Positions 7,906-29,630 of a stretch of DNA of 64,000 nt are shown here, in pieces. The DNA is from Eledone cirrhosa. Its lineage: Eukaryota. Below the pieces are notes generated by a model. The model searched no databases, was not told the DNA's origin, and saw only the letters and a program-made list of their open reading frames with translations. The position numbers and the translations under genes were made by a program. Numbering within the stretch: position 1 is the first letter of the stretch; each line of letters opens with the position of its first letter. The stretch spans positions 81,716,001 through 81,780,000 of the forward strand of contig OZ024744.1 of assembly GCA_964016885.1 (NCBI GenBank). Reading direction: 5' to 3'.

Positions 7906-8296
7906 GGAGGTGAGTTTTATTGTAGTACAATAAAGCAATGCAGATATCGGATAAGAAGCACTCTACAGTTTGTAGGACTGGAGTATGCATAATATAAGAT
8001 CAAAAGATGGTTAAAGGAGTTCAATGTATTTTATTATGCGCATTTCAAAAACAAACATCATCATGCAATAATATTTGTGTTTTCATCAGATAAAATAGGA
8101 GAACATGATATGAAGGCTAAAAAACACTTGTGGATAGTGCAGTTTTAAATCAACATATGTTAAATATGTTTTTTAGCCTTCATATCATGTTCTCCTATTT
8201 TATCTGATGAAAACACAAATATTATTGCATGATGATGTTTGTTTTTGAAATGCGCATAATAAAATACATTGAACTCCTTTAACCATCTTTTGATCT

Positions 8297-19730: not shown

Positions 19731-19908
19731 TATATATATTAAATGTTTCCGCAGGAAAGGTAAAGGAAAGGAGAGTGCTCTATGTAGGCTACAGAGCTAT
19801 TTAGTTATGTAATAAACAACATAAGACAATTATTTCATTTACCAAAGGTTTCACGAAGACAGACGAGCTTGACACAGACGTCTGAAATCGTTCGTCAGGA
19901 CGAAAATT

Positions 19909-21190
19909 TGTCTCGTCTATCAGCCACCAACCTTATTGTACGCACCCCTCGCACACCCACCATCTACTTCCTCCCCAAAATACACAAACAAAATAATCCC
20001 GGCCATCCTATCGTTTCTGCGTGCAACTGCCCCACCGAGATAATTTCTGAATATTTAGACACCCTCCTCGCCCCGTGGTCGGTAATCTCCCCTCCCACAT
20101 CCACAATACCAATCATGCCCTTAGACTCTTCAACTCTGTCCCCATCCCTCCTGGTCCCTCCCACCTTCTCTTTACCCTGGACATCACCACTCTCTATACC
20201 GTCATCCCTCACGATGACGGCGTCCGCACTCTCCAACATTTTTTAGATTTACGCTCTACCCCTTACCCCAGCACTACCACTCTTCTCCATCTGGCTGAGC
20301 TTGTTCTCACCATCAATAGATTTTCTTTTTCGGGTGAATTTTATCAGCAGGTCTCTGGGGTAGCGATGGGAACCAGAATGGGTCTTCGTCGGCTCTGTAG
20401 TCAGGACGACGATTTCGAACTTCGCATGGCTTCCTGCTTCATCCAGCGTGGATATCCACCCCCACCCTGATCCAAGCTGCTCTCACCCGCACCCGTGAAA
20501 CAGACCGCACCACAGCCCTCTCACCTCACTCCTGCCCTCCCATCACCCATGTTCCTTTCCCTCGTACCTACCACCCCATCACCCTACCAATCCGGCGACA
20601 TATCCTCTGTTCTAACCCCGCCACTTCTCGCTTTTTTCCAAACCCACCCATTACTGCTTTTAAGCGCGCCCGCAACCTCCGCGACCTTCTAGTTCGCAGT
20701 TCCTTTTCGTCCTCTCCTACGACTCCACCCGGCTCTCATCCTTGTTCCTGTTCCTGCTGCAACACTTGTCCCTTTATTTCAACCCTCACCACTCTTACAG
20801 GCCCTAACGGGTCTTTCCGTATCCGCCATTTCTTCACCTGCACATCCACCCACATTGTCTATGCCCTCTGGTGTTCCCTTTGCGGGTCTTTATATATCGG
20901 ACAAACGGGACGCCGTATGGCGGACCGTTTTGCCGAACATTTGAGGGACATACGACTCGGTTTGGATACTCCTGACGTCCGTCATTTCTGTTCTCCTGGT
21001 CATTCTTCCCTACATGTTAAAGCGATAGGAATATAGGGGTGTGATAATGGACGGGGTATTAGAGAAATTGGGGAGGTGAGTTGAGTCCAAGAGGGGAATA
21101 GGACCCAAGGCGATGAATCAGACTTTGTTCAGTCCCGGTGCGCAAGGCATGTGATCCACGATGTAAAAGGACACCCAGGACTGAAACACT
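19909..21190 (+). mobile_element. Penelope-like element remnant: RT, Cys-rich linker and GIY-YIG endonuclease (Neptune-like layout)
   Basis: Motifs [37 protein letters not shown], linker PCSCSCCNTCP and VYALWCSLCGSLYIGQTGR..RFAEH. The last about 40 codons (..EQSLIHRLGSYSPLGLN) lie inverted at 21019-21190. Confidence 0.88.
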
Positions 21191-21336
21191 TGATCATTAG
21201 CAGCTTCTCTTACAACTAATACATGCGGACTATATATGCTCACTCCTCTTTTCCCTTCACTGCGCTGAATATACACATACACACTCTTTTACTCACATAT
21301 ACACACACATTTCTTCTTAGCTTCGTACGGACGTAT

Positions 21337-21481
<145 letters not shown>

Positions 21482-21709
21482 CTTACGCACGTGCACAAGT
21501 ATAGCTCTTTTTACAAAACGTTTTTTTTTCCATTTCAGGTAGACGCGCTCCATCATCCACTTTACTAAAAAATAAATCATACACAAAACGCCAACACCAA
21601 CAATTTTGCAAGAGATGTCAACATGAATGGACCTGTTATTTTTATCTAAAGACATTTTTTACCAATTCCAACACGCCCGTCCCCTCAATCTATCTTATTT
21701 CTCATTCTT

Positions 21710-21745
21710 TCTTCTGATGAAAGACTAGCGTCCGAAACGTTAAGA
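21710..21745 (+). ncRNA. Minimal PLE-type hammerhead (family H)
   Basis: TCTT-CTGATGA-aaGACtagcGTCc-GAAACGTT-AAGA, with palindromic AACGTT in place of stem III. It lies downstream of the PLE ORF on the same strand. Confidence 0.75.
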
Positions 21746-22904
21746 CCCTCTTCCTGCTATATCAAGCGTTAACCTAATATATCCCTTCCATATACTGTAC
21801 TGATTGTGTTGTTATTTCTGTTTACCTTTTACATACATATATATCTATATATATATGTATAAAGGAGTTTCAACAAATTGTTTCTCTATTTTATTTTTTC
21901 ATTTATTTTTTGTTCATATTTGTGGAAACGTGTATCAAAAGCATGAAATGACTTAATTTTTCATATTTGCCTTTTCTATATTATTGTTGAGGTGCTTTTG
22001 TACTACAACATTCATACGGCTCGTCGGATTTACATACATGAAGTTGATTCTGAAACAATTTAACGCATTTAAAAAAAAAATTATTGGCAATCTGAGATTG
22101 CAAACATGAATTATCAAAATTTATTCAAAAGCAAAAAAACAAACATTTATTTAATAAGGGAAATAAAAAAAGGGGAAATAAAATGAAAGAAAGAATAGAG
22201 AAATATAGAGAAAAAAAAGAGAGAAAGAACGAAGAAAAAGAACGAGAAAAGGAGGAGATGGCAAGAGTTCTGGTGTCGCAGAAAAGAGAGGAGGGGTGAA
22301 GCGGGAGGGTGATTGGGCGTTCAAGAAGGCCAGGAAGGAATAAGGTTGGAACTACCTTCAACCAATGGCTAGGGATTGTTTACGTCCTTTGTGATGATGC
22401 TGTGTGGGTGTTTGAAGTAATTCATTGTCAACAAGGCCTTGAAGTAACAACACCAATAAATCGCCCGTGGTACAACACACAATGGAAACTGAATGGGTAA
22501 TTTTTATTCATTTTATTTTTCTTCTTGTAATTTTTATTCATGTAATTTTCTGTTGAGGTCGTAACGGTTACATAACAATTATCATCGAAATACGTATAAC
22601 GGCAATTGATTGTAATAAAAAAAAACCAAAAAAAAAAACCGGTAAATTCTAACCTATTGGTTTCTACTTCATTGTTATACTCCAGACTACATATATACTT
22701 CCCTGAGTGCTCTATCCTGCATACACTAGTATCAGTTGATAAACTAACAGAAAATATACCAACAAATTTTATATCCAAAGTTGGCAGAGCACCATCAGTC
22801 CGTCCGAGGGACGAGTTATAATATACATTTTATTTGTGTTGCTCTGACAGAGTGAGATGTAATCGGGATGGTATATTGAAGCATATAGGAAATGTTTATG
22901 TATA

Positions 22905-25191: not shown

Positions 25192-26134
<943 letters not shown>

Positions 26135-26476
26135 TAATACATTTAGAAACACACAGATACATGCGGACACACACATATATACATGAATGCATCCGCACCC
26201 AACTGTGAGTTCAGGGTGCCAACTTCACCGATGTTGCTCAATGAATGACTGGGACAGGCCAATTCAGTTTGAACCAGACTGAACCAGTATCAGAGTTAAA
26301 AATACAACGGCCTCGATATGAATACCCCCTCCGCCTCCGTGGTATTTTTTTTCGTGGTTATAAGAGGCTTAGCTCTGTTTCTCGACCGTTATATCGCGTG
26401 ACTATCTCCCCCTCCGCCTTTTGGGATTCTTTCTCACGTCGTGTGGACGCGTTCTTGAGACTAGTAAAATGAGGTA

Positions 26477-26564
26477 TCCTCTTGATAAGTCGGCAGACCT
26501 CGCAAGGACTCTATATCTTTGATATATTGTTTTTGTTTATGCCACGAAACTACGTAGTCGAGGA
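26477..26564 (+). ncRNA. Type I hammerhead ribozyme, U3-A8 variant (array copy 1)
   Basis: TCCTC-TTGATAA-GTcGGCA...TGCCAC-GAAACTACGTAGTC-GAGGA. Predicted cleavage is after GUC at 26559. Confidence 0.85.
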
Positions 26565-27068
26565 ATTTAGGAACAGTTTAGGTATGATACATTTTATTAC
26601 TAATTATATCTGAATGTTTCTTCTCTCTTCATAATGTATTTTTAACTCTGATACTGGTTCAGTCTGGTTCAAACTGAATTGGCCTGTCCCAGTCATTCAT
26701 TGAGCAACATCGGTGAAGTTGGCACCCTGAACTCACAGTTGGGTGCGGATGCATTCATGTATATATGTGTGTGTCCGCATGTATCTGTGTGTTTCTAAAT
26801 GTATTAATAACTCCCTCTGGTCGAGCAATCTTTGAAGTGTGGGGACAACTGGAAAGCTTCCATTACTCATACTTCTCGCCTTCTTCACTACCTCTTCTAC
26901 GGCCTCGATATGAATACCCCCTCCGCCTCCGTGGTATTTTTTTTCGTGGTTATAAGAGGCTTAGCTCTGTTTCTCGACCGTTATATCGCGTGACTATCTC
27001 CCCCTCCGCCTTTTGGGATTCTTTCTCACGTCGTGTGGACGCGTTCTTGAGACTAGTAAAATGAGGTA

Positions 27069-27156
27069 TCCTCTTGATAAGTCGGCAGACCTCGCAAGGA
27101 CTCTATATCTTTGATAAATTGTTTTTGTTTATGCCACGAAACTACGTAGTCGAGGA
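27069..27156 (+). ncRNA. Type I hammerhead ribozyme, U3-A8 variant (array copy 2)
   Basis: As copy 1. Predicted cleavage is after 27151. Confidence 0.85.
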
Positions 27157-27659
27157 ATTTAGGAACAGTTTAGGTATGATACATTTTATTACTAATTATA
27201 TCTGAATGTTTCTTCTCTCTTCATAATGTATTTTTAACTCTGATACTGGTTCAGTCTGGTTCAAACTGAATTGGCCTGTCCCAGTCATTCATTGAGCAAC
27301 ATCGGTGAAGTTGGCACCCTGAACTCACAGTTGGGTGCGGATGCATTCATGTATATATGTGTGTGTCCGCATGTATCTGTGTGTTTCTAAATGTATTAAT
27401 AACTCCCTCTGGTCGAGCAATCTTTGAAGTGTGGGGACAACTGGAAAGCTTCCATTACTCATACTTCTCGCCTTCTTCACTACCTCTTCTACGGCCTCGA
27501 TATGAATACCCCCTCCGCCTCCGTGGTATTTTTTTCGTGGTTATAAGAGGCTTAGCTCTGTTTCTCGACCGTTATATCGCGTGACTATCTCCCCCTCCGC
27601 CTTTTGGGATTCTTTCTCACGTCGTGTGGACGCGTTCTTGAGACTAGTAAAATGAGGTA

Positions 27660-27747
27660 TCCTCTTGATAAGTCGGCAGACCTCGCAAGGACTCTATATC
27701 TTTGATATATTGTTTTTGTTTATGCCACGAAACTACGTAGTCGAGGA
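27660..27747 (+). ncRNA. Type I hammerhead ribozyme, U3-A8 variant (array copy 3)
   Basis: As copy 1. Predicted cleavage is after 27742. Confidence 0.85.
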
Positions 27748-27813
27748 ATTTAGGAACAGTTTAGGTATGATACATTTTATTACTAATTATATCTGAATGT
27801 TTCTTCTCTCTTC

Positions 27814-27902
<89 letters not shown>

Positions 27903-27907
<5 letters not shown>

Positions 27908-28100
27908 AACCAGTAAGACCCCGACAGCTGAGCTCAAGCCGTTTCGACGGCTAATTCTGGGTCCAGAATTAGCCGTCGAAACGGCTTGAGCTCAGCTGTC
28001 GGGGTCTTACTGGTTCCTATTACCCACTTTACTACCTCAAGTATTGAGTACTTTGGTGCGTTATGGTCCACCTGGTTCCTTACCACATTTCCTTCGTTAT
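27903..28100 (+). mobile_element. Perfect 58-bp foldback carrying the 3' half of a hammerhead, between (TA)n tracts
   Basis: Arms 27903-27960 and 27963-28020. The right arm has GAAACGGCT...AGCTGTC-GGGGTC, while the CTGANGA half is absent. Confidence 0.65.
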
Positions 28101-29198: not shown

Positions 29199-29630
29199 AA
29201 TATATAAGATCAAAAGATGGTTAAAAGAGTTCTATGTATTTTATTATGTGCATTTCAAAAACAAATATCATCATGCGATAACATTTGCGTTTTCGTCATA
29301 TAAAATAGGGAGACATGATATGAAGGTTAAAAAATACTTGTGAATAGTGCAGTTTTAAATCAACATATCATATGTTGATTTAAAACTGCACTATTCACAA
29401 GTGTTTTTTAACCTTCATATCATGTCTCCCTAATTTATCTGACGAAAACGCAAATATCATCGCATGATGATATTTGTTTTTGAAATGCGCATAATAAAAT
29501 ACATAGAACTCTTTTAACCATCTTTTGATCTTATATATTATGTATACTCCAGTCCTACAAATTGTAGAGTGCTACTTATCCGATATCTGCATTGCATTAT
29601 TGTACTACAATAAAACTCACCTCCTACATA
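29199..29630 (+). mobile_element. PLE-like end family F, about 170-bp arm palindrome with HHR at 29431-29501
   Basis: The palindrome centre is at 29369. Motif CTGACGA...GAAATGCGCATA-ATAAAATA is homologous to 8196-8266. Confidence 0.75.

What the first reader, a model, noticed from the sequence alone, without database searches (positions are those of the whole stretch)
26135..26898. Inversion geometry of the trimer points to a circular or exact-multimer RNA template
Seen: the inverted 172 bp equals 26635-26806, and sense sequence resumes 92 bp further along the unit, a twin-priming pattern. The inner end of the inversion (register 26635) coincides with the register of the array 3' end (27818), so the insertion spans exactly three units. 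Inference: RT primed on (TA)n and went around a 592-nt circle, while a second primer extended up to the first priming site. A precise trimeric RNA is the alternative.
Basis: inference. Interest (0 to 1): 0.75.

Follow-up and report, generated by a model that had tools for sequence, protein, structure and literature searches.

The report
One edited RNA circle, two primers
A 592-base non-coding repeat with a predicted self-cutting RNA motif sits here as two back-to-back arms in a TA tract, and across its genomic copies the two arms start at two different fixed points and carry the same A-to-G changes in every repeat, which likely means that a Penelope-type enzyme copied one edited RNA circle from both cut DNA ends.

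Summary
The window geometry is as described, but it is not the rule. Across other loci the gap between arms is random, totals are not whole units, and the inverted arm ends at the array's end register in only 4 of 72 two-armed loci. The circle idea survives on better evidence. This is a non-LTR retrozyme (type I hammerhead, U3-A8) with thousands of ends in (TA)n. Arms end at one of two fixed sites, A and B, 165 nt apart; 103 of 111 two-armed insertions use one of each, none uses the same site twice (8 unclassifiable). Arm lengths are exponential and independent, up to 7 units. Locus variants are fixed in all units of both arms, and 40 of 64 fixed changes are A>G on the ribozyme strand versus 5 of 93 single-unit changes, as expected if one ADAR-edited unit-length RNA was copied repeatedly. 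Likely mechanism: double-ended target-primed reverse transcription by a Penelope-like enzyme on a circle. No partner element or RNA data found.

The parts
25195..26134 (.). left (TA)n target tract
   Evidence: tandem repeat finder; sequence
26135..26306 (-). inverted arm (B arm): unit registers 1-172, its RNA-sense 3' end (site B) pointing out into the left TA tract
   Evidence: exact match to 26635-26806; carries the locus variants 49C and 95G like the sense units
26306..26307 (.). head-to-head junction (register 1 against register 265), no microhomology, no inserted bases
26307..27818 (+). sense arm (A arm): 2.56 tandem units ending at site A next to the right TA tract
26477..26564 (+). predicted type I hammerhead, U3-A8 core variant, palindromic short stem III; predicted cut after 26559
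   Evidence: read from the sequence; stems I and II in the centroid fold; core invariant in copies 74-81% identical to the unit; no Rfam match at gathering score
27069..27156 (+). second hammerhead copy; predicted cut after 27151
27660..27747 (+). third hammerhead copy; predicted cut after 27742, about 76 bases before the arm's end
26633..26639 (+). internal copy of start site A (second copy 27225-27231; used as the terminus at 27818)
   Evidence: 2593 exact A-plus-TA junctions in the genome, control 0
26798..26806 (+). internal copy of start site B, 165 bases after A (second copy 27390-27398; used as the terminus at 26135)
   Evidence: 181 and 780 (older variant) B-plus-TA junctions, controls 0
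27819..27905 (.). right (TA)n target tract

Best explanation
The locus is a two-armed insertion of a 591-592-base non-coding hammerhead repeat (non-LTR retrozyme) whose arms end at two fixed sites and share one sequence, and it was likely made by a Penelope-like RT/endonuclease that cut a (TA)n tract, primed one DNA end at site A and the other at site B of the same unit-length, likely circular RNA, copied round it for a random distance from each end, and left two cDNAs that were likely joined head to head. Shown: the anatomy, fixed sites, A-plus-B pairing, length distributions, shared variants, A>G bias. Inferred: RNA self-cleavage and ligation, ADAR as the source of A>G, the circle rather than a precisely jumped linear monomer, and the enzyme.
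For: (1) Ends: 72 of 75 two-armed loci in the main set of 118 have one A and one B end, 3 have one unclassifiable end; with four further sets read by eye 103 of 111, 8 unclassifiable, none AA or BB; for the 21 loci not chosen by an end, independent choice gives at most 5e-7. A monomer has exactly one A and one B. (2) Lengths: exponential (A mean 614, n=51, p=0.87; B mean 745, n=78, p=0.22), uncorrelated (rho -0.05), up to 7.2 units an arm and 11.3 in all. (3) One template: divergence within an arm 0.169%, between the two arms 0.176%, between loci 0.690%; 0.57, 0.65 and 3.29% in the 20 A-anchored loci; 22 loci carry a variant fixed across both arms; at sites covered 3 or more times 40 variants are fixed, 68 single, 8 partial (61 loci). 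(4) A>G: 40 of 64 fixed events (16 of 39 distinct sites) against 5 of 93 single-unit changes (p=2e-6 on distinct sites); A>G exceeds T>C (p=0.005); 10 site pairs fail the four-gamete test; in 34 locus-site cases with a G and 2 or more copies none mixes A and G; 14 of 17 sites are in predicted stems against 49 of 115 other A (p=0.002), and 9 of them recur in an independent set of 49 loci, where rare fixed changes are A>G in 11 of 44 against 5 of 67 single ones (p=0.011). Partial editing of a multimer would give single-unit G, not fixed G. (5) 307 of 308 crossings of the predicted cut site are clean. (6) The ribozyme strand folds as a circle at z=-5.8 (40 shuffles), 44 kcal/mol better than the other strand. 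(7) Junction microhomology 1.44 against 0.65 bases (55 junctions). (8) A Penelope-like protein nicks and extends both strands, starts at two internal RNA sites and is predicted to be a dimer (PMC11167929); animal retrozymes make circular RNAs (PMC7229834); this genome holds an abundant RT/GIY-YIG family ending in TA about 88 bases after its hammerhead.
Against: No autonomous partner sharing sequence was found. In vitro the anole protein used uncleaved RNA and did not need the ribozyme, and its start sites were not homologous to the target and did not differ between strands (PMC11167929). Eight partial variants in 5 of 61 loci do not fit a pure monomer circle: L075 (adjacent-unit duplication), L073 (alternating, period two units), L053, L060, L064 (one unit in each arm; L053 at the same template position); L174 is a second duplication; L185 mixes A and G at site 472. 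The A>G excess is weak when only variants private to one locus are counted (4 of 16, p=0.027; independent set 2 of 12, p=0.29), so many G states may be inherited or ancestral (569G is common in older copies), and unweighted neighbour bases show no clear ADAR motif. Arms stop slightly more often at the predicted cut site (5 of 300 passes against 1.8, p=0.03), so some templates may be linear. How two DNA-tethered polymerases share one small circle is not explained; independent lengths and no excess of collision stops (5 of 72, expected 5.0) suggest that they do not run in step.
Confidence: 0.7

Rival explanations
1. The template is the cleaved linear monomer, and the RT jumps precisely from its 5' end back to its own 3' end at each round; ends A and B as above.
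For: Explains fixed variants, A>G and A-plus-B pairing equally well; slight excess of stops at the cut site, 5 of 300 passes.
Against: 307 of 308 crossings carry no added, lost or changed base; template jumps of non-LTR RTs usually leave scars and can change molecule (recalled, not tested); no A/G mixing in 34 cases.
Confidence: 0.13
2. The template is an uncleaved linear multimer read through from a source array, primed at A and B.
For: Uncleaved RNA was the main substrate of the anole protein in vitro (PMC11167929); L053 has a variant at the same template position in both arms and L073 an alternating one.
Against: Non-fixed variants shared by both arms at one template position: 1 in 20,980 cells against 6.4-12.8 expected (p=0.012 for the lower figure); single-unit A>G is not enriched (5 of 93) while fixed A>G is; many different internally uniform haplotypes would each need a long uniform source; a multimer offers AA and BB pairs, seen in 0 of 111; totals are not whole units.
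Confidence: 0.09
3. Monomers or short pieces were inserted, and tandem units and their uniformity arose later in DNA by unequal exchange and gene conversion.
For: Adjacent-unit duplications at L075 and L174; a whole insertion duplicated at L188; cross-arm shared variants at L053, L060, L064.
Against: Only 5 of 61 multi-copy loci show partial variants; inverted arms are as alike as tandem neighbours; DNA processes give no strand-specific A>G; young arrays of 8 units have no differences at all (L033).
Confidence: 0.05
4. The A>G excess is selection for tolerated G.U pairs or retained ancestral G, not editing (this changes the editing step only).
For: 15 of 17 sites pair with U in the predicted fold; 569G and 462G are frequent in older copies.
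Against: C>T in G-C pairs is equally tolerated (72 paired C against 80 paired A) and commoner as a single change (17 against 5), yet only 5 distinct fixed against 16; recurrence on different backgrounds.
Confidence: 0.25

Closest known systems
Animal non-LTR retrozymes (Cervera and de la Pena 2020, PMC7229834; Li, Clavereau and Pollet 2026, bioRxiv 10.64898/2026.07.22.740005)
   Same: Non-coding tandem units, each with a type I hammerhead with a short palindromic stem III, GC under 45% (41.6%), dispersed in thousands; circular RNA template and Penelope-like mobilisation proposed there.
   Different: Unit 591 bases (170-400 in the first paper; 51-972 in the preprint); U3-A8 core; strict (TA)n target; in the passages and parts that I read neither paper analyses insertion ends, two-armed pairing, per-unit variants or A>G fixation.
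Penelope-like elements: pLTR, inverted 5' copy and 'tail' (Craig et al. 2021, PMC8557442; Frangieh et al. 2024, PMC11167929; U3-A8 hammerheads in Schistosoma, PMC4209133)
   Same: Partial tandems, an inverted truncated copy at the 5' end, an extension often at one end only, two internal RT start sites downstream of the hammerhead, both strands primed, microsatellite targets.
   Different: No ORF; the two sites are 165 bases apart, not 30-40; here one of each is used in every classifiable two-armed insertion, whereas in vitro start sites did not differ between strands; both sites hold an AT-rich stretch that can pair with the target.
L1 twin priming (recalled, no paper read)
   Same: Two target strands prime on one RNA; inverted 5' arm; microhomology at the junction.
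   Different: Second primer at a fixed site; arms overlap in register and both can be multi-unit; the gap is uniform over the unit; no poly(A); target duplication cannot be read in TA.

Membership tests
non-LTR retrozyme | type I hammerhead in every tandem unit | tested here: met
   core and stems read in all three window units; conserved in copies 74-81% identical; Rfam gathering scan gave 0 matches, so this rests on pattern, fold and conservation, with no stem covariation seen
non-LTR retrozyme | short tandem units, dispersed, no protein ORF | tested here: met
   no ORF of 150 aa or more lies within 26307-27818
non-LTR retrozyme | self-cleavage of the transcript | not testable with these tools
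   needs in vitro transcription
non-LTR retrozyme | expressed as unit-length circular RNA | tested here: inconclusive
   indirect genomic evidence for a unit-length RNA template; no direct RNA observation
Penelope-like element (autonomous) | ORF with RT and GIY-YIG endonuclease | tested here: not met
   none in the unit or the insertion; the element works like a passenger, it is not itself a PLE
Penelope-like element (insertion footprint) | partial tandem with inverted 5' copy | tested here: met
   75 of 118 loci two-armed
Penelope-like element (insertion footprint) | two fixed ends ('tail' on one side) | tested here: met
   sites A and B, 165 bases apart, kept in older subfamilies
Penelope-like element (insertion footprint) | terminal sequence shared with an autonomous family | tested here: inconclusive
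   five searches found none; only one PLE family was compared
L1-type twin priming | sense arm resumes close to the second primer's site (feature recalled) | tested here: not met
   gap of 100 or less in 9 of 71 loci, 12 expected by chance; A arms stop at site B in 0 of 94 passes

The most novel reading that the evidence does not exclude
The genome holds a fossil record of rolling-circle reverse transcription in an animal germ line: each insertion is a multi-pass readout of one ADAR-edited RNA circle, primed by a Penelope RT dimer at two dedicated sites, one per DNA end. Editing would then be a heritable mutation source for the element, and the unexplained tandem, inverted and 'tail' structures of Penelope-like elements would follow from one two-site, double-ended reaction.
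Probability: 0.5. Interest if true: 0.82.

Novelty: new variant of a known kind. Interest (0 to 1): 0.64.

Why it matters
That retrozyme circles are the templates of new genomic copies, and that Penelope-like enzymes move them, are published proposals without direct evidence in what I read; the origin of the tandem/inverted Penelope structure is called undefined (PMC8557442). This family makes both testable: it names the two start sites, predicts one per DNA end, and gives a molecular barcode (fixed A>G at named registers) showing that all units and both arms of an insertion came from one unit-length RNA. Searches (listings only, open library only) showed no paper on twin priming of Penelope-like elements, on obligate use of both sites, or on editing traces in retrozyme arrays.

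Tried and rejected
Rfam scan of the window: 0 matches. Apparent stop hot spots at registers 96 and 304 were artefacts of mapping to the window's own variants; remapped to the family majority sequence. A first idea that the sum of the two inner registers clusters by RNA structure was not borne out (total length mod unit, KS p=0.09). Collision of two polymerases: no excess. Partner search: a loose end from run X1 had no match in the genome; the window's Neptune-like family has no DNA similarity to the unit; 16 loci with foreign sequence before register 333 were ordinary truncations or junctions; a shorter-loop hammerhead search led to older subfamilies, no ORF. Sequencing runs: no RNA holder listed; four runs of unknown kind, contigs only, were laid; two gave one contig of 620-621 bases (unit plus about 30, a closed cycle), which tandem DNA gives as well, so it is not used. 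The 14-of-16-base likeness of sites A and B in the young subfamily is not kept as such in old copies, so I do not claim a duplicated motif. ADAR neighbour preference is inconclusive: weighted by loci 5' G is rare (4 of 50), unweighted it is not (4 of 17), and the 3' G seen here is the vertebrate, not the invertebrate preference (PMC5625713). L098 (many indels) and L101 (old single unit) were dropped from variant counts. Flanks: no pair of the 118 loci shared both flanks in order; matches were one-sided or crosswise and at most 211 bases.

Full report
Observation. The inverted stretch 26135-26306 is an exact 172-base reverse complement of 26635-26806; sense sequence resumes at 26307 (equal to 26899, 92 bases on) and runs 1512 bases to 27818, the register of 26635. 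Both flanks are (TA)n. The insertion holds 1684 bases; 'three units' needs the 92 absent bases and follows arithmetically from the one coincidence. I number the unit from 26635; the family majority unit is 591 bases, the window's has one more T.

What the unit is. Each unit holds a type I hammerhead pattern (stem I 26477-26481 with 26560-26564, core with U3 and A8, long stem II, GAAA, short palindromic stem III, predicted cut after 26559). Rfam does not report it; the centroid fold gives stems I and II and the core is invariant in copies 74-81% identical to the unit. U3-A8 cores and dimer-active short stem III motifs are described for Penelope-like elements (PMC4209133, first part of the text). 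There is no ORF. The window lies in a 3.0-Gb animal assembly; earlier AI notes call it octopod, which I did not test.

Sampling. Main set, 118 loci: the window, 37 loci from the best 40 of 755 candidates of a unit search, and 80 loci from the first 100 listed of 181 site-B junctions (15 were already held, the last 5 were left out). Further sets: the first 20 loci of 2593 site-A junctions, 14 loci from a hammerhead search, 15 new loci selected by an inner end at register 333, 18 old-subfamily loci.

Two fixed ends, one of each. RNA-sense 3' ends point outward into TA and fall at site A (registers 1-10, mostly 5) or site B (166-172, mostly 170). In the main set 75 loci are head-to-head two-armed, 72 A plus B, 3 with one unclassifiable end; 43 were scored single-armed. 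Adding the other sets, read by eye: 103 AB, 0 AA, 0 BB, 8 unclassifiable, of 111. For the 21 AB loci not chosen by an end, independent choice gives at most 5e-7. Both sites persist in subfamilies about 25% diverged. Both flanks are TA-rich in 103 of 118 loci.

Inner ends are scattered; the gap from B to the start of the A arm is uniform (p=0.24; 9 of 71 at 100 or less, 12 expected); total length is not tied to whole units (p=0.09); arm lengths are exponential and independent; totals run from under 1 to 11.3 units. B arms stop exactly at site A in 4 of 171 passes without the window (0.6 expected, p=0.003 for 3 bases, p=0.18 for 11 bases), comparable to piles at 91-93 and 103; 2 of 4 new B arms also stop there. 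So 'second primer runs up to the first priming site' is a plausible minor pause, and the window is one such case. A arms never stopped at B (0 of 94 passes). Junctions show short microhomology (1.44 against 0.65 bases, 55 junctions, 0 of 5000 resamplings).

One unit-length template. Divergence within an arm equals that between the two arms (0.169 and 0.176%) and is a quarter of that between loci (0.690%), lower in 40 of 40 loci; in the older A-anchored set 0.57, 0.65 and 3.29%. In 116 loci (L098 and L101 dropped), sites covered three or more times give 40 fixed variants in 22 loci, 68 single-unit and 8 partial ones in 5 loci; 22 loci have a variant fixed across both arms, the window among them (49C, and 95G, seen in no other locus examined). 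Non-fixed variants shared by both arms at the same template position are 1 in 20,980 cells against 6.4-12.8 for a linear source array. The predicted cut site is crossed cleanly 307 of 308 times, with a weak excess of stops there (5 of 300, p=0.03).

A>G signature. Fixed changes are A>G on the ribozyme strand in 40 of 64 events and 16 of 39 distinct sites; single-unit changes in 5 of 93 (p=2e-6 on distinct sites); T>C does not mirror it (16 against 8, p=0.005). Ten pairs of recurrent sites show all four combinations, and none of 34 locus-site cases mixes A and G. Sites lie in predicted stems (14 of 17 against 49 of 115, p=0.002); 9 recur in 49 independent loci, where the excess repeats for rare variants (11 of 44 against 5 of 67, p=0.011) but not for strictly private ones (2 of 12, p=0.29), with one mixed case, L185. 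G.U tolerance alone does not explain it, as C>T is not enriched. The simplest reading is A-to-I editing of a structured RNA, read as G at every pass; a partly edited multimer would give single-unit G. ADAR editing of double-stranded RNA is general in animals and highest in octopus (PMC5625713, passages). Events are not all independent: an edited copy can found later copies.

Against, and exceptions. L075 and L174 show adjacent-unit duplication after insertion; L073 alternates with a two-unit period (dimer circle or block duplication); L053, L060 and L064 share a variant between one unit of each arm, which I ascribe to conversion between inverted arms without proof. No autonomous partner was found; the abundant RT/GIY-YIG family in and beyond the window (17,795 first-look candidates) has the same layout, hammerhead then a fixed end in TA about 88 bases on, but no DNA similarity.

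Mechanism. Likely: read-through transcript, dimer-assisted cleavage, ligation to a 591-base circle, occasional editing; a Penelope-like dimer nicks both strands of (TA)n, each end anneals to the AT-rich stretch at A or B of one RNA, each cDNA is extended with strand displacement for a random distance, the two 3' ends are joined by microhomology and filled in. Single-armed copies would be events in which one end did not extend. Shown are the DNA patterns; enzyme, cleavage, circle and editing are inferred.

Known and new. Retrozymes, their circular RNAs and the proposal of tandem cDNA from circles by Penelope-like RTs are published (PMC7229834: passages; bioRxiv 10.64898/2026.07.22.740005: parts 1-3 of 5, introduction to discussion; its supplements were not seen and may list related families). 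Inverted 5' copies, one-sided tails and TA targets are published (PMC8557442: passages), as are two internal start sites and extension of both strands (PMC11167929: parts 1-2 of 4; supplements not read). PMC9977147 (passages) added nothing. L1 twin priming is recalled. Not found in my searches (listings only): obligate A-plus-B use, per-unit evidence for a single template, editing traces. Earlier notes of this scan describe two-armed retrozymes with one long and one short end in other families of this genome (seen after my reading was formed, not checked by me); none for this sequence and none holding the editing words.

Verdict. Interest 0.64.

Noticed in passing
window 27906-28017: Perfect palindrome with 54-base arms and a 4-base loop directly right of the TA tract (z=-21); unrelated to the unit; origin not examined.
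   Followed up: no
window 19788-21850: Decayed Penelope-like element (RT fragments, Cys-rich linker, weak GIY-YIG match E=0.004) with a canonical hammerhead at 21714 and a TA end; very abundant family.
   Followed up: partly
window 25195-26136: 940-base TA tract with an internal duplication of its interrupted part (about 25500-25660 and 25960-26120), read from the sequence.
   Followed up: no
L073:3239-5807: Variant 467A in alternate units (second and fourth of five): a dimer circle or a two-unit duplication.
   Followed up: partly
L188: A whole two-armed insertion duplicated 2554 bases away with its junction.
   Followed up: no
L245 and L246 (one locus): 565-base unit: a deletion in hammerhead loop II is present in both tandem copies, another case of a variant fixed in all units.
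   Followed up: no
L079, L110, L132, L135, L059: Extra templated pieces of the unit (18-600 bases) between the two arms, suggesting template switches during joining.
   Followed up: no
L118 and L150: The same pair of inner registers (265 and 104) with A and B arms swapped; registers 103-105 and 264-267, at the base of predicted stems, recur as stops, and the window's A arm stops at 265.
   Followed up: partly
window 8089-8260 and 29257-29480: Inverted-repeat elements with hammerhead-like core words on both strands; not examined.
   Followed up: no
L199:875 and L214:1114: Another hammerhead family ending in TA about 60 bases after its core.
   Followed up: no
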